Source: Candidatus Daviesbacteria bacterium (lineage in GTDB: Bacteria > Patescibacteriota > Microgenomatia > Daviesbacterales > UBA10151). From it: DNA of 64,000 nucleotides. The stretch is taken from assembly GCA_028687915.1 (NCBI GenBank), contig JAQTZF010000001.1, forward strand, positions 1,966 through 65,965, read 5' to 3'. The notes under the pieces are model-generated. The model was not told the origin of the DNA. It did not search any database and saw only the letters and a program-made list of their open reading frames with translations. Positions 4,392-44,739 of the stretch are shown piece after piece (position 1 is the stretch's first letter; the number at the start of each line of letters is the position of its first letter). The translations under genes were made by a program, and so were the position numbers.

Positions 4392-4437
4392 AATAGTATC
4401 TGGTATCTAGTATTTAGTATATGGCAAATATAAAAAA

Positions 4438-4812: not shown

Positions 4813-4822
4813 ATACTAAATT

Positions 4823-14261: not shown

Positions 14262-15031
14262 ATAGAATTTTTAAAATTTATCAAAATCAGCAGCATTTTT
14301 TTCTTGGGTTCACTGGTGCCCTTATTTTCCTAACCATATGGGAGATTATTACCAGGACAAAAATAATCAATCCCATCTTTCTAAGTCCACCCACAGAAAT
14401 CTTACAAACAGAATGGATCCTTTTTACATCCGGTAAAATCTTTCCTCATCTTTTTATATCTTTACAAGAATTTTCATTAGGTTTTGCCATAGCAATAATT
14501 CTTGGAGTATCTTTGGGACTGCTCATTGGTTGGTATAAAAAGATAGAAGCTTTAACTTCATCACTTATCTACAGCCTTTACTCTACCCCCAACATTGCTT
14601 TGCTACCATTGATCATTATTTGGACCGGACTTGGAATATGGTCCAAAATTATTGTGGTTTTTCTGGGAGCATTTTTCCCAATCTTAATCAATACTATCGC
14701 GGGGGTTAAAAACCTAGATCCTAATTTAGTTTCTCTTGCCCGCTCATTCGGGGCAACAGAAAGTCAAATATTCAAAACAATTATTTTTCCTGCATCCCTA
14801 CCCTATATTTTAACCGGATTTAAACTAGCTATTCCCCGAGCAATGATTGGAATGATTATTGGGGAATTCTTTGTTTCCAATCAAGGACTGGGATATTTAA
14901 TTACTTTTTACGGTTCAACCTTCCAAACAGCAGAGATTCTGGCAGTAGTTGTAATTGTAGTAATTATTAGTGTTTCCCTGACTAAACTATTGTCATATCT
15001 GGAAAAACATTTTCAATCCTGGAAAGTTTAA
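14258..15031 (+). CDS. ABC transporter permease (SsuC/TauC-like, BPD_transp_1)
   Basis: 257 aa, ~6 TM segments, EAA-like loop region (ARSFGATESQIFKTIIFPASLPYILTGFKLAIPRAMIGMIIGEF). Translationally coupled (4-nt overlap) to the upstream ATPase gene. Confidence 0.8.
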   Translation: MNRIFKIYQNQQHFFLGFTGALIFLTIWEIITRTKIINPIFLSPPTEILQTEWILFTSGKIFPHLFISLQEFSLGFAIAIILGVSLGLLIGWYKKIEALTSSLIYSLYSTPNIALLPLIIIWTGLGIWSKIIVVFLGAFFPILINTIAGVKNLDPNLVSLARSFGATESQIFKTIIFPASLPYILTGFKLAIPRAMIGMIIGEFFVSNQGLGYLITFYGSTFQTAEILAVVVIVVIISVSLTKLLSYLEKHFQSWKV

Positions 15032-16308: not shown

Positions 16309-16309
16309 T

Positions 16310-29289: not shown

Positions 29290-30345
29290 TTAGTTTGTGT
29301 AATAAACAGTAATTCTGACTGCATCTACCCAGGCAAAAGCTAATGTTGCTTTGGCAGTTAAACGAACACCGAATGTAGAACTATTAATATCTGCTGGTGT
29401 CCAAGATATTCCCCACAAATCGCTAACTCCTCCATATGTACTATACGCAAGTCCAGATGTAGACCAATTGGCTGCTTCGGCTTTATTTACAGTTCCCATC
29501 ACCCCTCCTTTAAGGATTAATACTTTATCATCATTAATCACTATTGGAGTTGTGGTGTAATGCGATTCTTTTTTAATTTCCACTGTAATACCAGTAATAG
29601 TTGCCCCAGCAGGAATATTGAAGCCAAAATTGGTGGCATCTAAATAATTAGTGTACACAATACCATGAGAACCAATACCAGCAACAGCAGGTACACCATC
29701 TTCAGTAAAAATATTCCCAACATTTGCCCAAATAGTAATTCCATACCCAGTTGTATTCGCTGCAGAACCTGCAAATTTTGTTACGCTAGAAGGAGTGCTT
29801 GTTGGTGAAGGAGTTGGAGAGGATGTCGGCGAAGCTGTAGGTGTTCCAGTTGGAGTTGAAGTTGGACTAGAAGTAGGTGTTATTGTAGGAGATGCAGTAG
29901 GTGTTGGGGCAACAGCAATATATGTTTCTTGTAATGAAACAACACAGAAGCATGTTGATACGCTGGTATCGCAAGCAGTACCAACTGGATGATTTTCTAA
30001 AGCTGCACAAACCTGAAAACCCTTGTTAGCTTCTCCATAAGAAATAAGATAATTTCCCCCTTCAGCAGGAGCTGGTACTACACCACTAGCAAAACTCTCA
30101 CCAGAAAGTGGGGTCAAATAGTCTCCCTTAGTAGTAAACTGAGTTTCCATAGCAGTAGCAATGGCTTTAACATCACCCTTTCTTTTTGCATCTCTAGTTG
30201 AACGTTGAACATTTGTGTAAATTATTAACCCTATACCTGTTAGGATAATAATCACAGCTATAACCATCAGTAGTTCTACCAAAGTAAACCCTGCTACTTT
30301 TTTGTTCTTTATGGCTTTAAGTCTTTTCATTCTTAAATAATCCAA
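29290..30345 (-). CDS. Type IV pilin-like protein (class III signal peptide) with a PT-rich linker and a large C-terminal domain
   Basis: Prepilin motif KKVAG|FTLVELLMVIAVIIILTGI (Gly-1, Phe+1, Glu+5, hydrophobic helix). PTPTASPTITPTSSPTSTPTGTPTASPTSSPTPSPTSTPS linker. The start may be the second Met, at 30330. Confidence 0.7.
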   Translation of the reverse strand: MDYLRMKRLKAIKNKKVAGFTLVELLMVIAVIIILTGIGLIIYTNVQRSTRDAKRKGDVKAIATAMETQFTTKGDYLTPLSGESFASGVVPAPAEGGNYLISYGEANKGFQVCAALENHPVGTACDTSVSTCFCVVSLQETYIAVAPTPTASPTITPTSSPTSTPTGTPTASPTSSPTPSPTSTPSSVTKFAGSAANTTGYGITIWANVGNIFTEDGVPAVAGIGSHGIVYTNYLDATNFGFNIPAGATITGITVEIKKESHYTTTPIVINDDKVLILKGGVMGTVNKAEAANWSTSGLAYSTYGGVSDLWGISWTPADINSSTFGVRLTAKATLAFAWVDAVRITVYYTN

Positions 30346-30713
30346 TACATGTAATCTTTTAGTGTTAAAATGATTAAAATTAAGAAATTAATAAAAATAA
30401 ATGCAATTACCCAATGAGGAAATTTTAGTTTTTTACTAAATACCAAACCTAAAGATAAAAGAGCAAGATATAAATATAACAAGATGAGTCCATAATCCAC
30501 AGGGCAATTAAATCCTGCATTTCTGTGAATCATGTCTACAGGAAAAAAAGTACATGGAATAGAAATAAATAATGACTCAGGTAAATTTTTAAAAACCGTC
30601 AATATTATCCCCAAATCACGAGATAAAAAAATAACAAACAAAAGATTTACTATAAAAATAATTAAAAGATAGTAGCCTACAAACCTAGCTAAACTTTTAT
30701 AATTAATTTTCAT
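30333..30713 (-). CDS. Small polytopic membrane protein (the ORF extends to 30875 but the likely start is Met55, which avoids overlap with the upstream pilin gene)
   Basis: Hydrophobic ORF with 3-4 TM helices between two pilin genes. No motif recognised. Confidence 0.4.
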   Translation of the reverse strand: MKINYKSLARFVGYYLLIIFIVNLLFVIFLSRDLGIILTVFKNLPESLFISIPCTFFPVDMIHRNAGFNCPVDYGLILLYLYLALLSLGLVFSKKLKFPHWVIAFIFINFLILIILTLKDYMYWII

Positions 30714-30792
30714 TTCTTTAAAAATAGTAGCAATAAAACAAAAAACAAGCAACCAATTATTAAAACAAAATTTAATAATGTTAAGGGTAAAC

Positions 30793-31944
30793 TTAAAGTG
30801 CACATCCAGTACCACTATTATAAAGGGCACTAATTTCTGAAGAAGAAAGTGCTCGATTATATACTCTAAGATCATCTAAAAATCCACTCATTACATTTAC
30901 ACTTCCACCATAAGAACCAATATAAAGTGTTCCTACCACCCTATTAAAAGTAGTTTCCCAAGTACCAGCACATTGTTCGGAACCATTTAAATACGATTTA
31001 ATATTGTTATTATCCCAAACCCAAGCAATATGATTATAAGTATTCAAAGGGATTGATGATATGGGGATACTGCATGAATATATATCTGAATCCGCATTGT
31101 AGGCTTGTAACCCTCCAGATCCGTTAAAATAAAATATTGGCTTACTTCCAGTAAAGCTAACTATACCCTTAGATACTTGACTACTTGGAATTTTTATCCA
31201 TCCTGCCACAGTCCCTGTTTCCCCAACAATTCCATCACTTGCCGGGAAACTTGAAACCGCTATATAATCATCCACCCCATCAAAACTACACCCACCCCTA
31301 TTCTTCCCAGTAATTGTACAATCCATACCTGTACCGTTAGTAGCTACTCTAGCTAGTCCATCATATCTATTGCTTGATGAATCAATTAATGTTTGATCTC
31401 CTGAAACATTATCATCCATCTTCCAATAACCAGCTAACCCTGAAGTTAATACCCCATAAGGGTCACAGGAAGGGCTAGAACCACCGCCTCCCCCTCCGCC
31501 ACCTCCTCCTAAAAAAGTAGAGTTTTGAATAGAAGAAATACATTGGCAAGTAGAAGAGCTGGCATAACATGGTTGTCCTCCCTGAGAACCAAGTCCAACA
31601 CAAATAGCAAATCTGTCTATTGCCTGAGTAATACAATTACTGGATGGACCAATTAAACAAGGATAATCTCCTCCTTCAGGCATTTTAGGGATATTTCCTG
31701 ATGAAAAATCAGTGTTAGTTAAAGTTTGATAGGAACCTAAATTAGAATATTTAATTTCATAAGCTTTAGAAATATTGTTTAAGTCTGTTTTTCTTTTGGT
31801 ATCCCTGGCAGCATTAGTAACACCGCTAAAAACAGCTACTCCAATCGTTGCAAGTATAGCAAGAACAGCTATCACCACTAGAAGTTCAATCAGAGTGAAG
31901 CCTCTGCTTCGCGCTTGTGCACTAAAACCCTTTATCCCCTTCAT
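30793..31944 (-). CDS. Type IV pilin-like protein fused to a C-terminal LamG (concanavalin-like lectin) domain
   Basis: N-terminal RG|FTLIELLVVIAVLAILATIGVAVFSG is a canonical prepilin cleavage site with Glu+5. Poly-Gly linker (GGGGGGGGGSS). The C-terminal region (GLAGYWKMDDNVSGD...GFLDDLRVYNRALSSSEISALYNSG) matches the LamG modules of the giant proteins at 1..9616. Confidence 0.75.
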   Translation of the reverse strand: MKGIKGFSAQARSRGFTLIELLVVIAVLAILATIGVAVFSGVTNAARDTKRKTDLNNISKAYEIKYSNLGSYQTLTNTDFSSGNIPKMPEGGDYPCLIGPSSNCITQAIDRFAICVGLGSQGGQPCYASSSTCQCISSIQNSTFLGGGGGGGGGGSSPSCDPYGVLTSGLAGYWKMDDNVSGDQTLIDSSSNRYDGLARVATNGTGMDCTITGKNRGGCSFDGVDDYIAVSSFPASDGIVGETGTVAGWIKIPSSQVSKGIVSFTGSKPIFYFNGSGGLQAYNADSDIYSCSIPISSIPLNTYNHIAWVWDNNNIKSYLNGSEQCAGTWETTFNRVVGTLYIGSYGGSVNVMSGFLDDLRVYNRALSSSEISALYNSGTGCAL

Positions 31945-32044: not shown

Positions 32045-32170
32045 TTTGATAAACCCGGCAATGACATATTGTCCCGGGGCCTTTCGACCCTAGTATCGTC
32101 GGCGCTGAAGCGTTTGACTGCTGAGTTCGGGAAGGGATCAGGTCGTTCCGCCTCGCTCAAATCACCGGAC
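32045..32170 (-). rRNA. rrf: 5S rRNA
   Basis: The reverse complement reads CCUGAUCCCUUCCCGAACUCAGCAGUCAAACGCUUCAGCGCCGACGAUACUAGGGUC, which aligns to E. coli 5S CCUGACCCCAUGCCGAACUCAGAAGUGAAACGCCGUAGCGCCGAUGGUAGUGUGGGGUC. Ends are approximate. Confidence 0.7.
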
Positions 32171-32254
32171 GTTTATAATAACAAATTTTGATCTAAGAAT
32201 CAAGAATTAACATTAACAACATGCCTAGAAAAGGCATTCTATTTCTCTTATAAT

Positions 32255-33175
32255 ATGTCTATTAAAAAAGAAGCACTCAGAACCAATCAGACTTGTCCAG
32301 AATATACCCTTCGTTTAGTTGTTGATAAAGAGTGTCCTTTTGACTGCATATATTGCTTTCAAGAAGGAACAAACTATTCTAAATCTAGTTCCCATGAAAA
32401 CCCTGACTTCCTAAGCCTAGTTGATAAGTTTGCAGCCGTAAGACCGATCTCTAAAATACGTTTAACAGGCGGAGAGCCTTTAATTTATGCCCCTCTCCTT
32501 CCTCTATTAAAAGGTTTAAAAAGAAAATTTCCATCTCTTGATCTAGGCATAACGACAAACGGAAGTACACCAAGAATTTTACAAAACGTAATAGAAGAGT
32601 TTACTGATACTCCTTTACATATGAACATTTCAATCCCAAGCCTAAATGAAGAAATGTTTAAGAAGCTAACAAATACAGCAAGGCTACCAGAAGTTTTATC
32701 CTCAGTTAATCAGTTGAGAGAAAGTAGTTTTTCTTCTCACGCAAATATTAATTTTATATTTTTAGAAGGAGTTAATGACCTTGAACTACCAGAAATGTCT
32801 GCTTTTGCTAGAGTAAATAATTTACCCTTAAAAGTTATGCAATTAACAGTTAATGAATTTAATTCTGATGCACTTAGAAGACTAAATACAGGTTCAGCAA
32901 ACCAAAGATTAATCACAGAACGAATACAGGATTTAGGATATCTTCCATCACAGCACCCAGATTCGTTTATTAAAGATGGTCATATAATTCGGGTTATTGG
33001 ACAAGTTGCACCACAAACTGATCAATATTTCAGAGATTATAAAACATTTAGGCTATATTACGACGGGAGAATTGGTATTTGTGGTGATAATGATGGAATA
33101 ATCAGACCAATTAATATGGATAATCCAAGACAAACTTTTTTAGAAGTAGTAACTGAAGCTGAAAAATTCCTCTAA
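32255..33175 (+). CDS. Radical SAM enzyme, MoaA/viperin-like, lacking the C-terminal auxiliary-cluster Cys triad
   Basis: CPFDCIYC (CxxxCxxC) at residues 26-33. RLTGGEPL, GITTNGS, NISIPSLNEEMF and FLEGVND all align to MoaA blocks. The C-terminus has RLYYDGRIGIC but no CxxC...C second-cluster motif. Confidence 0.8.
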   Translation: MSIKKEALRTNQTCPEYTLRLVVDKECPFDCIYCFQEGTNYSKSSSHENPDFLSLVDKFAAVRPISKIRLTGGEPLIYAPLLPLLKGLKRKFPSLDLGITTNGSTPRILQNVIEEFTDTPLHMNISIPSLNEEMFKKLTNTARLPEVLSSVNQLRESSFSSHANINFIFLEGVNDLELPEMSAFARVNNLPLKVMQLTVNEFNSDALRRLNTGSANQRLITERIQDLGYLPSQHPDSFIKDGHIIRVIGQVAPQTDQYFRDYKTFRLYYDGRIGICGDNDGIIRPINMDNPRQTFLEVVTEAEKFL

Positions 33176-33902
33176 CACGATTACAGTTATAAATATATTC
33201 TTTGACTTGGAATAAGCGAAGCTTGCGAGCTTTGCTCTTAAAGAACGTTAAAAATTTTCTCAGAAAATTTAGGGTACACCTTTCGCAAAGCGAAAGGCAA
33301 GCTATGCTTACTTCCCGTCAAAGTGGCTTTGGGCGTCTTTGCCACCAAAGACGCAAAATAAATAGATGAAAATAAGAGAAAAAATTTTGTACTCAAACTT
33401 ATAGGATTAGTTAGGTAGAATTGGATATTTTACACTTCAATCCTGTGGCTAACGCCCGGGACCTAGGTGCTTTGCACTCTGGAATGTGAATACGATATTA
33501 GTCAAAGGCTTTGAGCCAAAAAAACTCAACGATGACCATTAGTACTCTTAAGCTAAACACCTTACGATGCTTACACTGAGAGCCTATCAACCCGGTAGTC
33601 TTCCGGGGGTCTTAAAGATTCCTAATCTCAGGATCTGCTTCGTGCTTAGATGCTTTCAGCACTTATCAGGAAAGAACGTAGCTACCCGGCGCTGCCATTT
33701 TATGACAACCGGCACACTAGAGGTTCCCTCGTCTCGGTCCTCTCGTACTAGAGACAACTTCCCTCAAGAATCAAAACGCCCATACTGGATAGAGTCCAAC
33801 CTGTCTCGCGACGGTTTGAACCCAGCTCGCGTACCACTTTAACTGGCGAACAGCCAGACCCTTGGGACCTTCTACAGCCCCAGGATGTGATGAGCCGACA
33901 TC

Positions 33903-34213
33903 GCTGTCATTATTTGTCTACAATTACTTGTAGGATCAGACTATACCTTCACCCTGCTTTGCAGGGGCTAGCCTTTTATCCAAGTTTCAAAACCTTGAAT
34001 CCGATCTTTCGATCAAGTCGTTACGGGGTACGTTCATGTAAACTACGTTCGTGTAAACCAAACCGTAATAAACTGAATGTACTTCCCTCGGTGTTGTCCA
34101 TCATTACTGATTAGGAGTTCACCGATTTTAGCTAGTATTTTTTCAAAAAGACTTTTTATATTAAGTTCTAACAGAGCTACAGAATTACTCCTGCCGCACC
34201 CCAATGTATTAAG
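33903..34213 (-). other. Putative ORF-less group I intron in the 23S gene at the L2500-equivalent site
   Basis: A 311-nt AT-rich insert separates ...GGCACCU from CGAUGUCGGCUC. Removing it restores the E. coli PTC sequence GGCACCUCGAUGUCGG exactly. The 5' exon ends in U and the insert ends in G, as in group I introns. No ORF longer than 75 aa. Confidence 0.5.
34029..34058. repeat. Two tandem copies of the 15-nt unit TACGTTCRTGTAAAC (inside the L2500 intron)
   Basis: TACGTTCATGTAAAC followed by TACGTTCGTGTAAAC. Confidence 0.7.
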
Positions 34214-34251
34214 GTGCCGAACGATACCGTCCTTGTGGACTGTTGGGTATC

Positions 34252-34285
<34 letters not shown>

Positions 34286-34597
34286 ATAAGCCTACTCCCT
34301 CCCACGAGGAAAGTAGGGATCACTAAAGCCTGCTTTCGCACCTGCTCGACTTGTAGGTCTTGCAGTCAAGCACACTGTATACTTTTGCGCTTAAATCTCC
34401 GTTGCCATTGGAGATAAGTGTACCTTTGCACTCCTCCGTTACTTTTTTGGAGGAAACCGCCCCAGTTAAACTGCCCGCCAGACCTTGTTACGGTGCCGGA
34501 TTACGGCTACCGCTAGAGATTTAAAAATCTAAAAAAGAGGTGTTTCATTGTCGCCGAAGCTCCCTCCTACTCTACATAAATAAATTTTCAAATCAGG

Positions 34598-34635
<38 letters not shown>

Positions 34636-34842
34636 AAGTATGGGAAGGCCGCATCTTCACAGCCACTGCAATTTCGCCGAGTCTATCCTCAAGACAGTTC
34701 CTAAGTCGTTCTACCTTTCGTGCGGGTCTGAACTCCATTTTAAAACTGTCATTCTAAATAAATTTAGAAATCTTACATTTGTTTTTATGATTTAATGATT
34801 TTTAAATCCTCTACGTCGCCATAGAGATCGGACTATATCTTG

Positions 34843-34865
34843 TACGTTCATGTAAACTGAACGTA
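34843..34865. repeat. Hairpin repeat TACGTTCA-TGTAAAC-TGAACGTA (in the domain-IV intron)
   Basis: 8-bp perfect inverted repeat with a 7-nt loop. Confidence 0.7.
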
Positions 34866-34947
34866 CTCCAACGTGTAGTCTCTGAGGGTTTTTTGATATA
34901 AATATCAAAATCTTCCCTGCTGATTGACTCCACTAACAGATTGTCAC

Positions 34948-34970
34948 TACGTTTATGTAAACTAAACGTA
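34948..34970. repeat. Hairpin repeat variant TACGTTTA-TGTAAAC-TAAACGTA (in the domain-IV intron)
   Basis: A C>T change in the 5' arm is matched by G>A in the 3' arm, a compensatory pair. Confidence 0.7.
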
Positions 34971-36015
34971 GTACTGTTAGATACTGAGTTATTCCAGCAT
35001 ATAGTTGGATTTTCACTACTTAAGGTTTTTTGCATACTAATCTAGCAATTTTCAACGAATTCCCGAGTGTTGTACATTGCTGTACATTCTAGCAAGTTTG
35101 TTACCGCACCTACCAGACAAGGAATTTCGCTACCATAGAACAGTTATAGTTACTGCTGCCGTTCACCAGATCTTAGACCCCTTCCTCATCCAGTCTTACG
35201 ACTGGAGTCAAGAGAAGTTTTAAATTACTGGCACTGGGCAGGTGTCAGCCCCTATACATCAGCTTTCGCTTTAGCAGGGACCTGTGTTTTTGCTAAACAG
35301 TCGCTCAGGATCATTAACTGCGTCCCACATTGCTGCGGGAAGGACATCTTGCAAACTTACGTCCAGCTTTTGTTGCCGAGTTCCTTAAGGATAGTTCTCT
35401 CGATCGCCTGTGTATACTCAACTCGCCCACCTGTGTCGGTTTGTGGTACGGCTTGATACTGCTCCCTTTACGAAACTTTTCCTGAAAACAGAACATCACT
35501 TTCTTACGTATTCGTAACTCGAATATGCACTCCGACAAGTCTTGCGACTAATCGGAATGTTCCGACTTGCGTCGGACTGAGAGCGGATTTACCAACCCTC
35601 ACTTCCTTGTCACTTAAACCCCCATATAGAGGGCAAAGTTATTCCCATTTTGTCCTTCCGTAAAGTATTCACGAACAGCACATATACCCGAATTTTGACG
35701 GGTAATCCATCGACTACGCCATTTGGCCTCGTCTAAGGTACCGATTAACCCTATTCTGATTAACATTGAATAGGAAACCTTGGGCATTCGGCGTTAATGT
35801 TTTTCACATTAATTTCGCTACTCATACCGGCATTCTCACTTCTATACGCTCCACCCCGCCTCACGACGAAGCTTCATTGCCTATAAAACGCTCCCCTACC
35901 ACGTCACAATCATGTAACTGATTGTGACATCCGTAGCTTCGGTAGAACTTTTAGCCCCGGTTCGTTGTCGGCGCGAAATCCCGTAGTAGACCAGCGAGCT
36001 GTTACGCTTTCTTTA

Positions 36016-36052
<37 letters not shown>

Positions 36053-36617
36053 AAGGAATTTCACATCCTTTAACACTTAAAGTTCATTTAGGGACCTTAG
36101 CTGTCGGTCTGGGTTGTTTCCCTCAGGACCGCTCCGCTTAGCCGGATCGGACTGACTCCTGCTACACACGTTAGTATTCGGAGTTTGATTGGATTGACAG
36201 TCTTGCGACCATCAGATCCATCCAGTGCTCTACCCCTAACGTGATTCCACAGGGCTATACCTCAATATATTTCGGGGAGAACCAGCTATCTCCGAGTTCG
36301 ATAGGCATATCACCTCTAACCACACCTCATCCTAGACTATTGATACAGTCACAAGTTCGGGCCTTCCCCGCCTTTTACAGCAGGTTCGCCCTGGACATGG
36401 TTAGCTCACTCGGTTTCGGGTCTGCCATATTCTCCTAAATCGCCCAGTTAGGGCTCGCTTTCACTGCGCCTACAAACATTCCTGTTCTTAGACTTGGAGA
36501 ATAAGACAACTCACCGGTTCATTCTTCAAAAGGCACACGGTTGTCCTAATAAATTAAGACTTCCGCAGCTTGACAACATACGGTTTCAGGTACTATTTCA
36601 CTGAGCGTTTCGCTCTT

Positions 36618-36657
<40 letters not shown>

Positions 36658-37336
36658 TGAAAGTATATTTAGCCTTAACAAGTGGTCTTGCTAGCTTCAC
36701 CCAGGATTACACGTGTCCTAGGTTACTCAGGAATCCGACCACGGCAGTCCAGATTTCGCTTACAGGGCTATCACCCTCTTTGGCATTCCTTTCCAGGAAT
36801 TTCAGCTATCCGTTCTACTCGCTACTGTCGGTCCTACAACCCCACGGGTTTCAAGTATTGCTACCTGAAGTGATCTGTGGTTTGGGCTTTTCCCTTTTCG
36901 CTCGCCACTACTGGGGGAATAAACTATTGTTCTCTTTTCCTGCGCTTACTTAGATGTTTCAGTTCAGCGCGTACCCCTTCCAACACTATTAATTTATGTT
37001 GGAATAATTGCCGATTAAGACAATTGGATTATTCCATTCGGAAACCTCTGGATCATAGCTTCTTAGCAGCTTCCCAGAGACTATCGCGGCTTAGTGCGTC
37101 CTTCATCGGTACTTTCAACCAAGGCATCCACCGTATGCATTATTGTTGAGTATCTTTTGGCTTGTAAATTCTCCGATAAATCGGAGAAAAATTTGGCCTT
37201 CTTCCCAAATTACAAATAAATTTGTAATTGTTTAAATCGTATTCACATTTCAAAGTGCAAAATCCAGATTATCTGGAACTCAGAAAACCGGAAATTCCGA
37301 TGTTCTGAGCCTCAGATTATCCAACCATCCCCTTGG

Positions 37337-37409
37337 TGGACCCAAGGAGGATCGAACTCCTGACCTCCTCATTGCAAATGAGGCGCTCTACCAACTGAGC
37401 CATGGGCCC
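37337..37409 (-). tRNA. tRNA-Ala (anticodon TGC)
   Basis: The reverse complement GGGCCCATGGCTCAGTTGGTAGAGCGCCTCATTTGCAATGAGGAGGTCAGGAGTTCGATCCTCCTTGGGTCCA folds as a cloverleaf (7-bp acceptor, GTTCGATCC T-loop, anticodon loop UUUGCAA). About 170 nt upstream of the 23S 5' end. Confidence 0.9.
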
Positions 37410-37591
37410 TGGCTACGTTCACATATTAAGTTATAATTAGAGGGATACAACGCTAAAAAGGTCTTGCTTCCTCGCACCAAGGAAGTCTTGAAGCGAGTGT
37501 TAAATTAATGGTGCGTTGGTTCTCATGTATTAACTTTGAAAGTTTACCAAAATAGCTACGCCTTGTCAATCACAAATCACTCTCAGTTATC

Positions 37592-37864
37592 TTATTTCTC
37601 TAAACATAAATTCTTACCATTTAGTCTATTAAAGAAAACCAGTCTGTTTCCTTGATCTGATTCAGAACCAAAAAAGAACTTTAACTCTTTTTCTGAAAAT
37701 GACCAAACAGCTTCATCAGCCAACATCTTAAGAGGCATATCATCCTCTTCGTACAAAGCTCTTAATACTCTACCCTTTATCCATTTACAATCATCCTCCT
37801 GAAACATTACACGAGTGCCTGCAGCAAAATTTATATCAACTTTAACTTCCTTACTCATCGGCAA
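37592..37864 (-). CDS. Small hypothetical protein
   Basis: 90-aa ORF upstream of, and co-oriented with, tRNA-Ala and the 23S gene. No motif recognised. Confidence 0.35.
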   Translation of the reverse strand: MPMSKEVKVDINFAAGTRVMFQEDDCKWIKGRVLRALYEEDDMPLKMLADEAVWSFSEKELKFFFGSESDQGNRLVFFNRLNGKNLCLEK

Positions 37865-37913
37865 ATTATAACAATAACCAGCCTAAATTCAACACTCTTA
37901 ATATTTCAATGTT

Positions 37914-38339
37914 TCAGCTTCCCACAAGTACTGGAAACTCAAGAGCTTTAGTAAAATTAGGACATTTCTGAACTGATTCTTCATCCATTGATTTTCGGTC
38001 TATATCTAATGTACGTTCATCAGTTATCAAATTTATTCTCCACACACCTTCAATTTCAGAAGATTGAGGGTTTTGACAAATATAATCTTCTTTAGCACAC
38101 CCATAACAACGACCCTGCCAAAACAGATTTCCTGCTGCTTTCATTTGTTTTATTGCAAATTCCTTTTGTATAGCTAATAAATTAATCCGCATGACACAGC
38201 TTTCAATTTTTTCATCCTTAAAACTATAATTTTCCTTGCCTTCACCTCTAATTTCAAATCTTCCCTGAATTAAAGGGATTAAAGGTTCCTGACATCGAAT
38301 TAAACCATCTATATTGCATAAATTACATCTTTCAGGCAT
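37914..38339 (-). CDS. Cys-rich small protein (CxxC ... C ... CxxC ... C), possibly a zinc-ribbon
   Basis: 141 aa with CNLC, CQEP, CYGCAKEDYIC and KCPNF. Spacing is consistent with a Zn-binding domain. Family not identified. Confidence 0.45.
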   Translation of the reverse strand: MPERCNLCNIDGLIRCQEPLIPLIQGRFEIRGEGKENYSFKDEKIESCVMRINLLAIQKEFAIKQMKAAGNLFWQGRCYGCAKEDYICQNPQSSEIEGVWRINLITDERTLDIDRKSMDEESVQKCPNFTKALEFPVLVGS

Positions 38340-38440
38340 ATTTCTCTCCTTTCTTTAATGCAAATATGACATAACTTAATTTAAGCGTCAAATTTTTAAA
38401 CATTTTTGACAAATTTTATACAAAATGTTAAGATTTTAAC

Positions 38441-39091
38441 ATGATTACTGTTCCAGAGGTTGTGGAAGAATTAGTCAAGCAAAAACCCTTACTGGAAGAA
38501 GGGCTTGCTTCAGACATTATTAACCTATCTTCTTTGGCAAGAGAATTTCAGCCGTTTATCCAAAAAAAGTTATATAAGGATATTCAAACAGGCGCTATTG
38601 TGATGGCTTTAAAAAGGTTATCTTTAAAGCTAAAAAAGCAGCAAAATAAGATTTCTTCCCTACTTATCAATATAGGGGATATTACAGTCCGTTCAAATTT
38701 AGTTGAATTTACCTACACCAATTCACCAACTTTAGCTTTAAAGCAAAGTATTTTATTGCAGGATGTTGATCAGGAAAAGAGTGCTTTTTTAACCCTCACA
38801 CGCGGTGTTTATGAAACAACAGTTATTATTAGCTCCTCTTTGGAAAAAGAGGTGGAAAGGGTCTTTCAGGGAGAACATTTAAAGTCCAAATTTGATAATC
38901 TTTCTGCTATTACTCTAATATTGCCAGAGAGTGCTTTAAACCAATCAGGAGTGTATTACACAATACTTAAAAAGTTAGCTTGGGAAGATATTAATTTTAT
39001 TGAGGGTATTTCCAGCATGACAGAGCTAACAATTATTTTGAAAAGTTCCCTGGTGGATAAAGCCTTTTCTACCCTCAAAAACCTCTCTTAA
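38441..39091 (+). CDS. Hypothetical protein
   Basis: 216-aa ORF followed by a perfect palindromic terminator. No motif recognised. Confidence 0.5.
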   Translation: MITVPEVVEELVKQKPLLEEGLASDIINLSSLAREFQPFIQKKLYKDIQTGAIVMALKRLSLKLKKQQNKISSLLINIGDITVRSNLVEFTYTNSPTLALKQSILLQDVDQEKSAFLTLTRGVYETTVIISSSLEKEVERVFQGEHLKSKFDNLSAITLILPESALNQSGVYYTILKKLAWEDINFIEGISSMTELTIILKSSLVDKAFSTLKNLS

Positions 39092-39167
39092 GTTTCCTGT
39101 TCTGTTATTTCTTCTTTGACTGGAATAATAAATAAAATTTAGGTCAACTTCCCGTCAAAGGATTTTT

Positions 39168-39192
39168 GCCACACTTTTTTAAAAAAGTGTGA
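39168..39192. terminator. Bidirectional intrinsic terminator between convergent genes
   Basis: Perfect palindrome CACACTTTTTT|AAAAAAGTGTG, with T-runs on both strands, between 38441..39091 (+) and gap (-). Confidence 0.55.
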
Positions 39193-39203
39193 GAATAAAA
39201 AGA

Positions 39204-40223
39204 TTACTTAGTAGAAATATTTAGAACTTGTTCTACAAGTCTATTGGAATATCCAAATTCATTATCATACCAAGCAAAAACCTTTACCAAATCCCCATCA
39301 ACCACCTGTGTTAGTGATAAATCAACAATGGCTGATTCTGATCTGCCTATAATATCTGAAGAAACCAAAGGTTCATCACTCCAGGTTACAATTCCCCTCC
39401 ACCTTGAATCATCACAAGCTTCTTTAATTGCCTGATTTATTTCATCAACTGATGTTTTGGTTTTTAGAAGAAAAGTAAAGTCACAAATTGAACCTAAAAT
39501 AACTGGTACCCTAATCCCTACCCCATCAAACAAACCTTTTAATTCCGGAATAACTTCTGTAGTAGAAATAGCAGCACCAGTGGTAGTGGGAATAATATTA
39601 GAATAAGCAGCCCTTGCCCTTCTTAAATCATTACTTTTACCACCTGGTGGTGGTCCATCAACTAAATTTTGTTCAGCTGTTATAGCATGGGTGGTAGTCA
39701 TTAAAGCTTTAGCAATTCCAAATTTTCCATGAATAATAGCTGCTACCGGAGCCACACAATTAGTGGTACATGATGCATTATTAATAAGTTGCTGATCAGT
39801 ATATTGATCCTGATTAACTCCCATTAAAAATGTAGCAACATTTCCCCCTTTTGAAGGAGCTGATAAAATTACTTTTTTGGCTCCAGCTAAAATATGTTGT
39901 TGTAAATCTTCTTCTTTGGTAAAACGGCCTGTGCATTCTAAGACCACATCAATCCCTAAGCTACTCCATGGGAGGTTTGCAGGAATCTTTTCTGCAGTTA
40001 TAGGGTATTTTTTGTTATCAATTATGATATTTTGGTCATCAGCAAAAACCTCTTTACCCCATCTACCATAGGCTGAATCATGCTGTAAAAGATGTGCCAA
40101 TACTTTACCTTCTGTTAAATCATTTATGGCAATAATTTCAATTTGCTCAGAATATTTTTCCAGGATAATTTTAAAAACAGTCCTGCCTATTCTCCCAAAA
40201 CCATTAATAGCAACTTTAATCAT
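39204..40223 (-). CDS. gap: Glyceraldehyde-3-phosphate dehydrogenase, type I
   Basis: KVAINGFGRIGR NAD-binding motif, active-site ASCTTNC, C-terminal WYDNEFGYS, 339 aa. Confidence 0.95.
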   Translation of the reverse strand: MIKVAINGFGRIGRTVFKIILEKYSEQIEIIAINDLTEGKVLAHLLQHDSAYGRWGKEVFADDQNIIIDNKKYPITAEKIPANLPWSSLGIDVVLECTGRFTKEEDLQQHILAGAKKVILSAPSKGGNVATFLMGVNQDQYTDQQLINNASCTTNCVAPVAAIIHGKFGIAKALMTTTHAITAEQNLVDGPPPGGKSNDLRRARAAYSNIIPTTTGAAISTTEVIPELKGLFDGVGIRVPVILGSICDFTFLLKTKTSVDEINQAIKEACDDSRWRGIVTWSDEPLVSSDIIGRSESAIVDLSLTQVVDGDLVKVFAWYDNEFGYSNRLVEQVLNISTK

Positions 40224-40236
40224 AAATAATATTTTT

Positions 40237-41097
40237 TTATTTTGTTGTTTCCTTATAACCAGTCGGTAAGACTAAATATTGATTAATATTAGTAATTTTT
40301 TCATAAACGAAAGTTATTGTTTGCCATGTATCGGTATCATTTATTCTATAAGAAAGCGTATTAATAAGTCCACTATTTTTATCAAAAGTAATTTTAATTT
40401 TAACAGACAAACCCTTAGCATCCAAAGGTGTTTTATAAGTAGTATCTGATTGCCATTCATTATCGCCAATTAATTGCCAAGTTTTACTTGAAGTATCTTC
40501 AATTAAGCCAAGCAAGGGTAATCCTGCCTTTGCCAATGACCAGTAGAACTTACCCATTTCTCCATTTAAATCTTCCTTTATATATTCTTTTTTAGAAGAA
40601 TCAAAAATATAGACTTGATTATCCTTAAACATCAGGATCTGTTGTTTACCTATACTGTTAACCTCACCCCTAACCAAACTGCCCATCTGGGTATAAAAAA
40701 TACCTCTATCAGCATCATATCGGATTGTACTGCTTCCAACCACCTTACCTGTTGTATCTGTCTGCTGTGTTTGAAATTCAATTTTTCCACTAGTATAAAT
40801 TTTATAATCAGCTGCTTTAAAAACAGCTGCGAAAGTTGTTATTAGATCAGTGGCTTGAGGAGGACTGCTTGGTGTAGCAGTCGGAATTGCTGTGACCGTA
40901 GAGGATAATTTTTGCTGAGCAACAGGAAGAGGGCTGGGTGAAACTTGAGGAATAGGTGTTGAAAGCTTTATAGCTGGTATTAAATTTGGATATTGAGTCT
41001 TTATTAAATATGATCCACCGACAATAGCTACTGAAATTAAGGCTATAATAATTATAAATACAATAACGGTAAAACCATTATTTTCTTTAGACAGCAT
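40237..41097 (-). CDS. Membrane-anchored hypothetical protein with a Ser/Thr/Pro-rich linker
   Basis: 286 aa, N-terminal TM helix, PIPQVSPSPLPVAQQ...TATPSSPP linker. No catalytic motif. Confidence 0.5.
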   Translation of the reverse strand: MLSKENNGFTVIVFIIIIALISVAIVGGSYLIKTQYPNLIPAIKLSTPIPQVSPSPLPVAQQKLSSTVTAIPTATPSSPPQATDLITTFAAVFKAADYKIYTSGKIEFQTQQTDTTGKVVGSSTIRYDADRGIFYTQMGSLVRGEVNSIGKQQILMFKDNQVYIFDSSKKEYIKEDLNGEMGKFYWSLAKAGLPLLGLIEDTSSKTWQLIGDNEWQSDTTYKTPLDAKGLSVKIKITFDKNSGLINTLSYRINDTDTWQTITFVYEKITNINQYLVLPTGYKETTK

Positions 41098-41236
41098 ATA
41101 AAATCAGAATATCACAGAAAGATCAAGCCTAACAAGTATCGCTAAAATTCTTAAGTTGACTCTATTATTATAGAAAAACTTTCTTCGTGATAATACATCG
41201 CAGGACGTTTATCTTAAATCCTGTTTAGACTGATGA

Positions 41237-42226
41237 TCATTTTAATGCTTCAATTGTAGGTAATTTTCCTGTTTCCAAAAACTTAAGCATTGCCCCACCT
41301 CCTGTTGAAACAAAAGAAAACATAGTTAAGTCAGATAAATAATTTAGATATGCAATTGTATCTCCTCCACCAATAATACTTTTAGCACCGGATTCAATAA
41401 CTAATTGAGCTATCCTTTCTGTTTGGTTATTTTTAGGGTTCTCAACCAATCCTAAAGGTCCATTCCACAACACAGAGGCTGCAGAAGAAATAACTGTAGC
41501 CCATTCAGATACTGTTTCAGGTGTAAGATCTTCACCATCTTCTGTTAAATCAGCTAACATAATATTTTCCGGAAGAGTTGTCTTACTGGCTGCCAGTTCT
41601 TTTGCTATCTTTCCTCCCACCAACACCTTATGTGCAATCTTAGATAAAGCTAAAGCTGCTGGTAGTTTATCTTCTACTTTTTCTCCTCCGATAATCACCA
41701 CTAAAGGTTTTATCGGGTGTTCCTTAGCTTCTGTTAAGAACAGAACTTCTTTGGAAAATTGTAATCCTGCAGCACGAGGTAACAACATGGGTAAAATGGT
41801 AGTTGAAGCAGACTTATGATGAGAAGCAAAAGCCTCATTAACATAAAAATTACCTAAAGCAGCAAGCTCTTTAGCATAATAAACACTAGCTTCCTCTTCC
41901 CCTTTTTCAAACCTTAAGTTTTCCAGAAGTTGTAATTTACCACTGTCCAATTCATCCTTAAAACCATGTTCTACCAGCCAATTAAAAATAGGGGCAACTG
42001 ATAATTCTTCCACTTTCTTCCCTTCTGGCCTGCCAATATGCCCCATGATAATTACCTTAGAAGCATTCTCCAGGCAAAGCTCTAGTGTAGGCATTCCAGC
42101 AACTAATCTAAAATCATCTGTCACACTGCTATCTTCTATAGGCACATCAATATCCAAACGGAGCAAAACTTTTTTACCTTTAACTAAGGGAGCAGAAACA
42201 ACTTGCATCTTTAAATCGTAACACAA
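41237..42226 (-). CDS. pgk: Phosphoglycerate kinase (unusually short, 329 aa)
   Basis: VLLRLDIDVP, IIMGHIGRPEGK, LENLRFEKGEE, YVNEAFASHHKSAST and IIGGGDT match PGK blocks. Forms a gap-pgk operon. Confidence 0.85.
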   Translation of the reverse strand: MCYDLKMQVVSAPLVKGKKVLLRLDIDVPIEDSSVTDDFRLVAGMPTLELCLENASKVIIMGHIGRPEGKKVEELSVAPIFNWLVEHGFKDELDSGKLQLLENLRFEKGEEEASVYYAKELAALGNFYVNEAFASHHKSASTTILPMLLPRAAGLQFSKEVLFLTEAKEHPIKPLVVIIGGEKVEDKLPAALALSKIAHKVLVGGKIAKELAASKTTLPENIMLADLTEDGEDLTPETVSEWATVISSAASVLWNGPLGLVENPKNNQTERIAQLVIESGAKSIIGGGDTIAYLNYLSDLTMFSFVSTGGGAMLKFLETGKLPTIEALK

Positions 42227-42292
42227 TTATAAAAGTAAAAAAATTATATAAAGACAAAAATACTATAAAATGTTACAATTACCCTCAGTTTT

Positions 42293-42364
42293 GGGCACGT
42301 AGTTCACTGGTAGAACGCTTCACTGATAATGAAGAAGTAGATGGTTCGATTCCATCCGTGCCCA
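42293..42364 (+). tRNA. tRNA-Ile (anticodon GAT)
   Basis: GGGCACG-TA-GTTCACTGGTAGAAC-G-CTTCA-CTGATAA-TGAAG-AAGTA-GATGGTTCGATTCCATC-CGTGCCC-A gives a clean cloverleaf. The anticodon loop CUGAUAA is as in E. coli tRNA-Ile. Confidence 0.85.
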
Positions 42365-42385
42365 CTAAATCCCTTTTTCCCTTTT

Positions 42386-42458
42386 GGTGCGGTGGCGAAG
42401 TGGAAACGCTGGGGTCTGCAAAACCTCGATTGCGCGAGTTCGATTCTCGCCCGCACCT
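42386..42458 (+). tRNA. tRNA-Cys (anticodon GCA)
   Basis: GGTGCGG...GGGGT-CTGCAAA-ACCTC...GCGAG-TTCGATT-CTCGC-CCGCACC-T. Discriminator U73, as is typical for tRNA-Cys. Confidence 0.8.
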
Positions 42459-42553
42459 CCGAGTCTTCGAGGAGGAAGAGAGAGAACAACATCTCTGAGT
42501 GAAGCGAAGAGTAGTGTTATTCTCGCCCGCACCTCTGAAGTAAACCTCTGAAA

Positions 42554-42817
42554 TTAGTTTTGCGGAAGAGGTGTATTTTCTGGGCTTTTTATCTCCTCAA
42601 CTTTTTTGGCAATATCTTTTCTACGTAAGCCCTCAAAAAATTTAATTATTCCACCTAAACCAGGAATAATTTCTGAAATAGGTTTAAATTCCAACTTTTT
42701 AGGATCAGGATTTTCAACATTAAACCATTCCTTATTACCAAAGGCATTTTCTAGAGTTGGTTCATGCTTAGTAGGCTGTTTAAGGTTTTTACCCTTTTCA
42801 CTTTCAGGATTATCCAT
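42554..42817 (-). CDS. Small hypothetical protein
   Basis: 87-aa hydrophilic ORF between the tRNAs and the 16S terminator. Coding status uncertain. Confidence 0.3.
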   Translation of the reverse strand: MDNPESEKGKNLKQPTKHEPTLENAFGNKEWFNVENPDPKKLEFKPISEIIPGLGGIIKFFEGLRRKDIAKKVEEIKSPENTPLPQN

Positions 42818-42849
42818 AGTGTTATTCTACACTATTTAAAAATTTCCAC

Positions 42850-42882
42850 AAAAAAACTCCCCGGAGGGAGTTAATTTTTATT
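42850..42882. terminator. Bidirectional intrinsic terminator just 3' of the 16S gene
   Basis: AAAAAAACTCCCCGGAGGGAGTTAATTTTTATT: a GC-rich palindrome CTCCCCGG/CCGGAGGGAG flanked by A- and T-runs. Confidence 0.55.
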
Positions 42883-43043
42883 AATTCCAAAAAAGTGGTG
42901 GGGAGGGTTTTTATAGAAGCCCTCAACTTCTATCACCATTTACCCTGAATTTCTTCAGAATAGCGTGAAGGTGATCTTGGATCAAACCATGGCTAACTGT
43001 TGCTTACGCATTTTCAGGAATCCTCCAGTTTGACCTAATCTCC

Positions 43044-44515
<1,472 letters not shown>

Positions 44516-44739
44516 AAGTGAATTTGTATCCAGCTCCACTAATAAATCAATGAAGCTTTCTACAAGCTTCACTCAAAGAATTGACAAAAGATTTTCCCTA
44601 ATAAATTAGGGATTGCACTCTTGTTTTTCGATTTACCTAGACTTGGTAAATCATTTTCCCACCACTTTTCCGGAATCAACAGCCTAAAAAGGCATGAAAA
44701 AACCGAAAAAGGGTAAAAACTTTTCCGGTTGTTAATGTG

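What the first reader, a model, noticed from the sequence alone, without database searches (positions are those of the whole stretch)
32255..33175. Stand-alone MoaA-like radical SAM lacking the second Fe-S cluster: candidate viperin-like enzyme
The 306-aa protein aligns to MoaA throughout (CxxxCxxC at 26-33, LTGGEPL, ITTNG, VSLDSL-like NISIPSL, FLEGVND). It ends with ...RLYYDGRIGICGDNDG and has no CxxC...C triad for the auxiliary cluster that MoaA needs to bind GTP. MoaA-like enzymes without that cluster include viperins, the ddhNTP-producing antiviral enzymes. No other Moco-pathway gene (moaC, moaD/E, moeA, mogA) is in the window. Organisms with this reduced gene set rarely make molybdopterin. 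A nucleoside-modifying or defensive role is therefore plausible. It sits alone on the opposite strand between the 23S and 5S genes, with its own terminator-like hairpin.
Basis: partly seen in the sequence, partly recalled or inferred. Interest (0 to 1): 0.55.

Follow-up and report, generated by a model that had tools for sequence, protein, structure and literature searches.

The report
Cluster-less MoaA-like radical SAM enzyme
This is an intact gene for a rare radical SAM enzyme that descends from the molybdenum-cofactor enzyme MoaA but has lost MoaA's second iron-sulfur cluster; it probably modifies a nucleotide, it is not a true viperin, and its relatives elsewhere are usually paired with a membrane-anchored dCTP-deaminase-like protein, sometimes inside anti-phage defence islands.

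The parts
32255..33175 (+). CDS of the 306-aa single-cluster radical SAM protein (NCBI MDD2822472.1), a member of a rare MoaA-derived family without the auxiliary cluster
   Evidence: ORF. Pfam Radical_SAM at 1.6e-18. Exact match to P0001, 'radical SAM protein [Candidatus Daviesbacteria bacterium]'. Family defined by exhaustive HMMER and alignment A4. dN/dS about 0.28 against the L001 homologue. GC 33.6% and GC3 19.5% resemble the rest of the window.
32333..32356 (+). Codons for C27-x3-C31-x2-C34, the ligands of the SAM-binding [4Fe-4S] cluster
   Evidence: Read from the sequence. These positions are invariant in the family and aligned to MoaA C24/C28/C31.
32462..32482 (+). Codons for L70-TGGEPL-76, the GGE SAM-binding motif. 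The preceding K67 and R69 align with MoaA K69 and R71
   Evidence: Alignment to 1TV7. GGEP is invariant in the family.
33023..33097 (+). Codons for residues 257-281 (QYFRDYKTFRLYYDGRIGICGDNDG), the degenerate 'twitch' segment. MoaA Cys1 and Cys2 are replaced by F259 and Y262. R266 is retained and equals the second Arg of MoaA's CNRxR. The GD.DG motif is family-specific
   Evidence: Alignment A3 and A4. The AF2 model keeps beta-strands here.
32170..32254 (.). 85-bp divergent intergenic region between 5S (-) and the radical SAM gene (+), with promoter-like hexamers on both strands
   Evidence: On the + strand, TAGAAA-17-TATAAT lies at 32226-32254, but its -10 box abuts the ATG, so its use is doubtful. 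On the - strand, TTGATT-17-TATTAT with an extended TG lies at 32203-32175, directly upstream of 5S.
32053..32169 (-). 5S rRNA gene (flank)
   Evidence: Rfam RF00001, 72.2 bits.
33176..33519 (.). Structured spacer between the radical SAM stop codon and the 3' end of 23S
   Evidence: Folding of 33150-33420 gives z = -4.0 against shuffles. No Rfam family matches.
33520..37153 (-). 23S rRNA gene with two group I introns (flank)
   Evidence: Rfam RF02541, 2265 bits. RF00028 matches at 33917-34196 and 34809-35064.

Best explanation
The gene encodes a functional radical SAM enzyme with a single [4Fe-4S] cluster. It belongs to a small family that split off from MoaA and lost the auxiliary-cluster ligands and the Gly-Gly tail.

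Proposed mechanism:
- The CX3CX2C cluster binds and reductively cleaves SAM.
- The resulting 5'-deoxyadenosyl radical abstracts a hydrogen from the ribose of a free nucleoside 5'-triphosphate.
- That substrate is held by the MoaA-type phosphate-binding residues (R20, K67, R69, N124, K193, R266).
- Without the second cluster, which in MoaA anchors the guanine, neither the base specificity nor the product can be those of MoaA. The product is therefore a modified nucleotide, not cyclic pyranopterin precursor.

Ancestral arrangement and the window copy:
- Ancestrally the enzyme worked with a co-translated, membrane-anchored protein of the dCTP-deaminase/dUTPase fold. This points to a pyrimidine nucleotide and, from the neighbourhoods, to nucleotide-based defence or antimetabolite production.
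- The Daviesbacteria copy and its closest relative have kept only the radical SAM half, under purifying selection.

What is shown and what is inferred:
- Shown: gene integrity, family membership, loss of the cluster ligands, retained phosphate-site residues, and the partner association in relatives.
- Inferred: the substrate class, the chemistry and the physiological role.
For: Enzyme integrity:
- The radical SAM core is intact.
- All family-invariant residues are present in the window protein.

Retained MoaA-type substrate site:
- R20 aligns with MoaA R17 and R266 with MoaA R268. A solved MoaA R17/R266/R268 triple-alanine mutant exists (PDB 2FB2), and these are the residues I recall as needed for GTP binding and activity.
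- K67, R69, N124 and K193 align with MoaA K69, R71, N124 and R192.

Fold and relatives:
- The AF2 model has pLDDT 87.
- The family is monophyletic and lies outside bacterial and archaeal MoaA.
- A family-bearing contig (L091) also encodes a Moco-dependent oxidoreductase (Oxidored_molyb). That organism therefore presumably has a true MoaA elsewhere.

Partner and neighbourhoods in relatives:
- The DCD-fold partner overlaps the stop codon in relatives from both subclades.
- The partner has C-terminal transmembrane helices.
- Defence neighbours: in L086, PADLOC dCTPase at 436 bits, PDC-S11 at 288 bits and an Mrr type IV restriction enzyme. In L082, a PycC-like cyclase and a TIR protein.

Window copy:
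- The solo copies are under constraint, with dN 0.354 and dS 1.254.
- Base composition is host-like.
Against: - No biochemical data exist for any family member.
- The window copy has no DCD partner, kinase or defence gene within 64 kb. Any role drawn from relatives may therefore not transfer.
- K163 of MoaA is N164 in the window protein, and MoaA R266 is T264. The phosphate and base site is only partly conserved.
- The AF2 alignment was dominated by MoaA sequences, which biases the model toward MoaA.
- Family monophyly has only 65% NJ bootstrap support.
- The defence-island association rests on two contigs. Another pair (L091) sits among housekeeping genes.
- The promoter-like -10 box abuts the start codon, so expression is unproven.
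Confidence: 0.5

Rival explanations
1. It is a true viperin-type enzyme. It abstracts the 4'-H of CTP or UTP and dehydrates it to a 3'-deoxy-3',4'-didehydro-NTP chain terminator, giving the CPR cell stand-alone antiviral protection.
For: - It is a single-cluster radical SAM enzyme related to MoaA, as viperins are.
- PADLOC pVip models give weak hits (44 and 35 bits), and NF038283 gives E 3.9e-10.
- Relatives occur in defence neighbourhoods.
- The L001 homologue has an AAA_33 P-loop kinase-like gene two genes upstream.
Against: - The viperin model scores 39.4 bits against a cutoff of 180, and the matches cover only the generic core, residues 23-151.
- The family profile prefers MoaA (92.7 bits) to viperins (45-50 bits).
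- The positions 7 and 5 residues before the first cluster Cys are R20 and V22. R20 is MoaA-type, aligned to MoaA R17. Viperins, as I recall (not tested here), have the N-x-H motif at these positions.
- The C-terminal half aligns with MoaA's twitch region, not with viperin's C-terminal extension.
- No nucleotide kinase is present in the window.
Confidence: 0.15
2. It is an RNA-modifying radical SAM enzyme, acting on rRNA or tRNA, that has been recruited to translation-apparatus loci.
For: Both partner-less copies lie inside translation-related loci. The window copy sits between 23S and 5S. The P0002 copy sits between nusA-infB and rpsO-pnp on the same strand.
Against: - No RNA-binding domain is present.
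- The conserved residues match MoaA's free-GTP triphosphate site.
- Most family members are coupled to a dCTP-deaminase-fold protein, a fold that binds free nucleotides.
- In the window the gene is antisense to the rRNA genes and is not co-transcribed with them.
Confidence: 0.12
3. It is an inactive evolutionary relic of MoaA, a pseudo-enzyme left over after CPR genome reduction removed Moco synthesis.
For: The auxiliary cluster and the Gly-Gly tail that MoaA needs are gone. No Moco genes are in the window. The family is extremely rare, with one sequence per 90% cluster.
Against: - The SAM-cluster cysteines, the GGE motif and about 20 other positions are invariant across a family that spans down to 23% identity.
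- dN/dS is about 0.28 between the two CPR-type copies.
- The cluster-less state is shared by relatives on contigs with very different GC content (38-51%). These contigs include one with a Moco enzyme, so the loss predates and is independent of CPR reduction.
- There are no frameshifts or premature stops.
Confidence: 0.07
4. It is a bona fide GTP 3',8-cyclase (MoaA) that works without the canonical cysteines.
For: MoaA is the best hit in every library. JGI names one family member 'MoaA'.
Against: - It scores 103.8 bits against the equivalog cutoff of 284.
- Two of the three auxiliary ligands are absent in the window protein, and all three are non-conserved in the family.
- It has no Gly-Gly tail and no Mob_synth_C domain.
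- It lies outside the MoaA clade.
- No Moco genes or Moco riboswitch are nearby.
Confidence: 0.03

Closest known systems
MoaA, GTP 3',8-cyclase (TIGR02666; PDB 1TV7/1TV8/2FB3)
   Same: - The N-terminal CX3CX2C cluster, the GGE motif and the TTNG, NxS and xxN strands are shared.
- Equivalents of MoaA R17, K69, R71, N124, R192 and R268 are present.

   Different: - Auxiliary-cluster Cys1 and Cys2 are replaced by F259 and Y262, and Cys3 is not conserved in the family.
- It has no C-terminal Gly-Gly tail and no Mob_synth_C domain.
- It scores 104 bits against a cutoff of 284.
- It forms a separate clade.
- It has no Moco gene context.

Viperin / prokaryotic viperins (pVip; NF038283, PADLOC PDLC02903-5)
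   Same: It is a single-cluster radical SAM enzyme of the MoaA-like structural group. A nucleoside triphosphate substrate is likely. Some relatives lie in defence neighbourhoods.
   Different: - It is far below the model cutoffs.
- Similarity is restricted to the radical SAM core.
- It has MoaA-type R20 where I recall viperins having their N-x-H motif.
- Its C-terminal half differs from viperin's.
- The typical partner is a transmembrane-anchored DCD-fold protein, not a nucleotide kinase.

AbmM (albomycin thiosugar radical SAM enzyme, PDB 8WM2) and BlsE (PDB 7VOB)
   Same: These are MoaA-like radical SAM scaffolds that act on cytidine nucleotide or nucleoside substrates. They appear among the best sequence and fold matches. 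AbmM's role is taken from PMC12691670.
   Different: AbmM keeps an auxiliary cluster, which serves as its sulfur donor (PMC12691670). The sequence match covers only about 100 N-terminal residues. No antibiotic biosynthetic genes surround the window gene.
Defensive dCTP deaminase / nucleotide-depletion systems (PADLOC 'dCTPase')
   Same: The family's usual partner has a dCTP-deaminase fold. In one contig the pair lies 1.7 kb from a PADLOC dCTPase gene.
   Different: The partner belongs to the trimeric DCD/dUTPase fold (PF22769), is below the dCTP_deam cutoff (44-65 bits against 92.8) and carries transmembrane helices. It matches no PADLOC model. The window has no such gene.

Membership tests
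Radical SAM superfamily (PF04055) | CX3CX2C motif and a Pfam score above the gathering threshold | tested here: met
   C27/C31/C34 are present. The score is 67.9 bits against 29.5.
MoaA (GTP 3',8-cyclase) | Equivalog HMM score above the curated cutoff | tested here: not met
   TIGR02666 gives 103.8 vs 284, NF001199 gives 98.4 vs 231, and TIGR02668 gives 96.4 vs 325.
MoaA (GTP 3',8-cyclase) | C-terminal CX2CX13C ligands of the auxiliary [4Fe-4S] cluster that binds GTP | tested here: not met
   The aligned positions are F259, Y262 and C276. The third position is S, T or N in other family members.
MoaA (GTP 3',8-cyclase) | C-terminal Gly-Gly tail and Mob_synth_C domain (PF06463) | tested here: not met
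   The protein ends about 45 columns before the MoaA ...IGG tail. PF06463 is absent, whereas it is present in all MoaA hits.
MoaA (GTP 3',8-cyclase) | Co-occurrence with moaC, moaD/E, moeA, mogA and Moco-dependent enzymes | tested here: inconclusive
   None was found among the 64-kb window ORFs of 100 aa or more, and no Moco riboswitch is present. The remaining ~1.03 Mb of the genome could not be read.
Viperin / pVip | Family HMM score above the cutoff, with the match spanning the C-terminal substrate-binding extension | tested here: not met
   NF038283 gives 39.4 vs 180 and matches residues 24-148 only. PADLOC pVip gives 44 bits and matches residues 23-151 only.
Viperin / pVip | Single [4Fe-4S] cluster, with no auxiliary cluster | tested here: met
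   There is no second Cys triad anywhere in the protein.
Viperin / pVip | N-hydrophobic-H motif 7 to 5 residues before the first cluster Cys (recalled from the viperin structural literature, not from a tool) | tested here: not met
   The sequence reads R20-L21-V22 at these positions. R20 aligns to MoaA R17.
Viperin / pVip | Production of ddhNTP and antiviral activity | not testable with these tools
   This needs enzymology and phage or virus challenge.
Viperin / pVip | Frequent adjacency to a nucleotide kinase | tested here: not met
   There is no kinase in the window. Only a weak AAA_33 P-loop gene lies two genes upstream in L001.
Cluster-less MoaA-derived family (P0001, P0002, P0121-P0128, P0138; unnamed) | Full-length profile match well separated from generic MoaA, plus shared motifs (N..N after strand 6; GY; YF..F(K/R)T.R.Y.D; GD.DG) | tested here: met
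   E-values range from 1e-104 to 1e-35 with full-length matches, against 1e-27 or weaker with mostly partial matches for other proteins. Invariant columns are listed. The clade has 65% bootstrap support and the subclade holding the window protein has 93%.
Cluster-less MoaA-derived family (unnamed) | Translationally coupled downstream DCD-fold partner (with transmembrane helices where complete) | tested here: not met
   The partner is present for P0121, P0123, P0124, P0125, P0127, P0128 and P0138. For P0128 it is identified by alignment only, because that gene is cut off at the contig end. It is absent next to the window gene, and no DCD homologue is found anywhere in the window.

The most novel reading that the evidence does not exclude
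The family is the catalytic half of an undescribed two-gene anti-phage system. A MoaA-derived, single-cluster radical SAM enzyme converts a pyrimidine (d)NTP into a modified nucleotide. A co-translated, membrane-anchored protein of the dCTP-deaminase fold either senses or further processes that nucleotide, causing chain termination or membrane-mediated abortive infection. In CPR bacteria the radical SAM half has been kept alone, next to rRNA and translation genes, as a minimal stand-alone nucleotide-analogue synthase.
Probability: 0.2. Interest if true: 0.7.

Novelty: new variant of a known kind. Interest (0 to 1): 0.45.

Why it matters
MoaA, viperin and AbmM show that this radical SAM scaffold repeatedly evolves new nucleotide chemistry with large biological consequences: cofactor synthesis, antiviral chain terminators and thionucleoside antibiotics.

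This is a further, uncharacterized branch. It has discarded the second cluster yet kept the phosphate-binding site. It is usually wired to a membrane-anchored dCTP-deaminase-fold protein and is sometimes located in defence islands.

It is therefore a concrete, cloneable candidate for a new nucleotide modification or a new defence module. For CPR biology, it marks one of the few non-housekeeping enzymes retained in a ~1.1-Mb genome. It also shows that a 'MoaA-like' annotation in such genomes should not be read as evidence for molybdenum-cofactor synthesis.

Tried and rejected
- The genome-contig scan with the full family alignment chose the generic KIRLTGGEPL pattern and returned only ordinary MoaA loci of at most 33% identity.
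- A word-index search with the family-specific C-terminal alignment returned nothing.
- The full-length profile search was swamped by MoaA and recovered only P0001, P0002 and P0138.
- The metagenome scan with C-terminal motifs gave only two loci, one a duplicate.
- IMG/VR viral contigs gave no relative.
- Plasmids and phages gave only ordinary MoaA or generic radical SAM hits at 29% identity or less, and no hit for the DCD partner.
- PADLOC has no model for the DCD partner.
- Literature searches for radical SAM with dCTP deaminase and defence, and for MoaA with anti-phage, found nothing describing this pair. A search for the PDB code 8WM2 was uninformative.
- Frameshifted or truncated MoaA is rejected. 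The C-terminus is conserved with P0002.
- Recent horizontal transfer is rejected. GC and GC3 are host-like.
- A Moco or SAM riboswitch upstream is rejected.
- A diversity-generating retroelement (DGR) around the bAvd-like gene was checked. Only paralogous repeats between the two giant genes were found, with no template/variable repeat pair.
- The first tree attempt timed out.

Full report
**Observation.** The ORF listing finds a 306-aa ORF at 32255..33175 on the + strand. Rfam places the 5S rRNA gene at 32053-32169 (-) and a 23S rRNA gene at 33520-37153 (-), the latter with two group I introns. The ORF therefore lies between the two rRNA genes and antisense to them.

The exact protein is in NCBI as MDD2822472.1, 'radical SAM protein [Candidatus Daviesbacteria bacterium]', on a 1,096,538-bp contig. 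The window content fits a CPR genome. It has unlinked rRNA genes, type IV pilin-like proteins, giant Laminin_G_3 proteins, and few metabolic genes beyond gap and pgk.

The motif ...RLYYDGRIGICGDNDG is followed by 25 further residues.

**Is it MoaA?** It is a radical SAM protein (Pfam E 1.6e-18), and MoaA is its best-matching named family. However, it scores 103.8 bits against TIGR02666's cutoff of 284. It also lacks the Mob_synth_C domain that every MoaA hit carries.

An alignment with 32 MoaA sequences maps the auxiliary-cluster triad.
- The triad F-C-x2-C-N-R-x-R...C-L corresponds to Y-F259-R-D-Y262-K-T-F-R266...C276.
- Two of the three ligands are therefore gone.
- The protein also stops about 45 alignment columns before the MoaA ...IGG terminus.

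This is not a truncation or a frameshift. A 55%-identical homologue (P0002) aligns through the last residues...AEKFL.

The AF2 model (pLDDT 87) is closest to MoaA.
- Foldseek gives E 6e-13 and TM 0.71.
- The input alignment was mostly MoaA, so this ranking is somewhat biased toward MoaA.

**Is it a viperin?** No, by every membership test available.
- NF038283 scores 39.4 bits against a cutoff of 180.
- PADLOC pVip models reach 44 bits or less and cover only the generic core, residues 23-151.
- A profile of the family scores 92.7 bits on MoaA and 45-50 bits on viperin-like enzymes.
- The residue 7 positions before the first cluster Cys is R20, which aligns with MoaA R17. From memory of the viperin literature (not tested here), viperins have an N-x-H motif at that place.

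**The family.** An exhaustive HMMER search of 1.84 billion cluster representatives found nine proteins with E of 1e-30 or better.
- Those nine are P0001 and P0121-P0128, all matching at full length.
- There is then a drop to about 1e-27, below which come a 133-aa fragment (P0129) and proteins that mostly match only over the N-terminal core.
- P0138 (E 2.9e-22, full-length match) also belongs to the family.
- Every 90%-identity cluster holds a single sequence, and only the window protein is in NCBI.

Conservation within the family (alignment A4) is as follows.
- None of the three auxiliary Cys positions is conserved.
- Invariant positions are R20, C27, C31, C34, E37-G38, G72-G73-E74-P75, T101-N102, N124, K193, N203, G228-Y229, Y258 and R266.
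- R20 and R266 correspond to MoaA R17 and R268, two of the three arginines of the solved R17/R266/R268 triple-mutant structure (PDB 2FB2).
- K67, R69, N124 and K193 align with MoaA K69, R71, N124 and R192. From established knowledge of the MoaA-GTP complex, these contact the triphosphate.

An NJ tree with 100 bootstraps gives this picture.
- The family is monophyletic (65%) and lies outside both bacterial and archaeal MoaA.
- The window protein pairs with P0002 (98%).
- That pair sits in a subclade with P0121, P0122 and P0123 (93%).

**Context in relatives.** For P0121, P0123, P0124, P0125, P0127, P0128 and P0138, the next gene overlaps the radical SAM stop codon.
- The partner is 300-350 aa where complete and carries a dCTP-deaminase-like domain (PF22769, E 1e-9 to 1e-16). 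For P0128 the partner gene is cut off at the contig end; it was identified by alignment with the others, not by a Pfam hit.
- It scores 44-65 bits on TIGR02274 against a cutoff of 92.8.
- The complete partner sequences share an N-terminal LIGGE...FVSIRLH region and a PGF...LE core. The core keeps the catalytic Glu position in 5 of 7 sequences, with Gln in the other 2.
- They carry one or two C-terminal hydrophobic helices in four of the five complete sequences.
- The partner occurs in both subclades, so the pairing is probably ancestral.

Neighbourhoods of the relatives vary.
- On contig L086/L087 the pair sits in a mobile, defence-rich region. This includes a PADLOC dCTPase (436 bits) 1.7 kb upstream, and PDC-S11 (288 bits) and an Mrr-type restriction enzyme downstream. 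A transposase and ArdC are also present.
- P0122 lacks the DCD gene. It sits beside a second, cysteine-replete MoaA-like gene, a PycC-like cyclase and a TIR protein.
- Another pair (L091) lies among housekeeping genes. It has GTP cyclohydrolase I immediately upstream and a Moco-dependent oxidoreductase nearby. That organism therefore presumably has a real MoaA as well.
- No paper describing this pair was found, and PADLOC has no model for the partner.

**The window copy.** No DCD, HIT, kinase or Moco gene is detectable in the 64 kb, and there is no Moco riboswitch.
- P0002 is likewise partner-less. It lies between nusA-infB-AAA_33-(unknown) and rpsO-pnp.
- The two solo genes differ by dN 0.354 and dS 1.254, which indicates purifying selection.
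- The window gene's GC (33.6%) and GC3 (19.5%) match the genome.
- The enzyme therefore appears to be native, maintained, and able to work without an adjacent partner. An unlinked partner elsewhere in the genome cannot be excluded.

The 85-bp region shared with 5S carries promoter-like hexamers on both strands.
- The 5S-side site suggests 5S is transcribed on its own.
- The + strand -10 box abuts the ATG, so the real promoter of the radical SAM gene is uncertain.
- The spacer toward 23S is strongly structured (z -4.0) but has no canonical terminator.

**Mechanism.**
- Shown: an intact SAM-cluster site, no site for a second cluster, and a retained MoaA-type phosphate-binding constellation.
- Inferred: reductive SAM cleavage yields 5'-dA radical, which abstracts a ribose hydrogen from a bound nucleoside triphosphate. 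MoaA takes H3' and viperin takes H4' (established knowledge).
- Without the cluster that holds guanine N1/N2 in MoaA, the 3',8-cyclisation is implausible and the base specificity must differ.
- The DCD-fold partner in relatives points toward cytosine or uracil nucleotides.
- The product and the physiological role are unknown. Possible roles include a defence metabolite, an antimetabolite as in the rSAM-kinase-NTPase 4'-thiothymidine cluster (PMC12691670), or housekeeping.

**Verdict.** It is wrong on family, because the protein is not a viperin. It is a new, very rare variant within the MoaA-like radical SAM group. Interest is moderate. There are many uncharacterized radical SAM families, but this one comes with a clear evolutionary story and a testable, apparently undescribed two-gene association.

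Noticed in passing
L084:165-2028; L086:10001-11819; L090:121-1762; L091:10001-11820; L096:143-2037; L083:344-2274; L097:85-1736: A conserved two-gene operon occurs in relatives: the cluster-less MoaA-like radical SAM gene, with a stop/start-overlapping gene for a dCTP-deaminase-fold protein that has C-terminal transmembrane helices where complete. The partner matches no PADLOC model, and no literature on the pair was found. This is a candidate undescribed nucleotide-modifying or defence module.
   Followed up: partly
L086:6283-8241, 14153-14830, 15665-16549: The pair on this 54-kb metagenomic contig is embedded in a defence island. Neighbours are PADLOC dCTPase (436 bits), PDC-S11 (288 bits) and an Mrr-like type IV restriction enzyme. 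A transposase, ArdC and an SNase-domain gene are also nearby.
   Followed up: partly
L082:1761-6582: Family member P0122 lacks the DCD partner. It is flanked by a second MoaA-like radical SAM gene that keeps C-terminal cysteines, a 220-aa protein with no family match, a PycC-like nucleotide cyclase and a TIR-domain protein.
   Followed up: partly
L091:9170-9850 and L093:579-1259: GTP cyclohydrolase I (PF01227) lies about 150 bp upstream of the rSAM-DCD pair in one lineage. This may hint at a purine/pterin link or may be coincidence.
   Followed up: no
L100:413-883: A 156-aa ORF with a HIT-like DHAHIYIIP motif follows another family member on a short metagenomic contig. It matches no Pfam, NCBIfam or PHROG family.
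   Followed up: partly
window 33520-37153 (introns 33917-34196 and 34809-35064): The 23S rRNA gene is 3634 nt against a 2925-nt model and contains two group I introns (Rfam 57 and 69 bits).
   Followed up: no
window 32053-44516: The rRNA genes are dispersed. The 16S gene (43046-44516, -) is separated from 23S by about 6 kb. That stretch holds pgk, gap, three unassigned ORFs, tRNA-Ala (-) and, on the opposite strand, tRNA-Ile and tRNA-Cys. The 5S gene is separated from 23S by 1.35 kb containing the antisense radical SAM gene.
   Followed up: partly
window 32175-32203 (-): A promoter-like site, TTGATT-17-TATTAT with an extended TG, lies directly upstream of 5S. It suggests 5S is transcribed independently of 23S.
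   Followed up: no
window 33150-33420: The spacer between the radical SAM stop codon and the 23S 3' end folds far better than shuffles (-69.6 kcal/mol, z -4.0). It may be a 23S processing stem on the minus strand. No Rfam family matches.
   Followed up: partly
window 162-9616: Two paralogous giant Laminin_G_3 proteins (1409 and 1597 aa) share segments of 76-95% DNA identity. They flank a 124-aa 23S_rRNA_IVP/bAvd-like gene (4438-4812). No reverse transcriptase and no template/variable repeat pair typical of a diversity-generating retroelement was seen.
   Followed up: partly
window 29290-31944 (-): Two type IV pilin-like genes with N-terminal methylation motifs lie immediately beside the 5S gene. 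One also has a Laminin_G_3 domain and a Gly-run linker.
   Followed up: no
L001:2946-4650: In the closest homologue's contig, an AAA_33 P-loop kinase-like gene and a 348-aa protein with no family match sit between infB and the radical SAM gene. Neither has a homologue in the window.
   Followed up: partly
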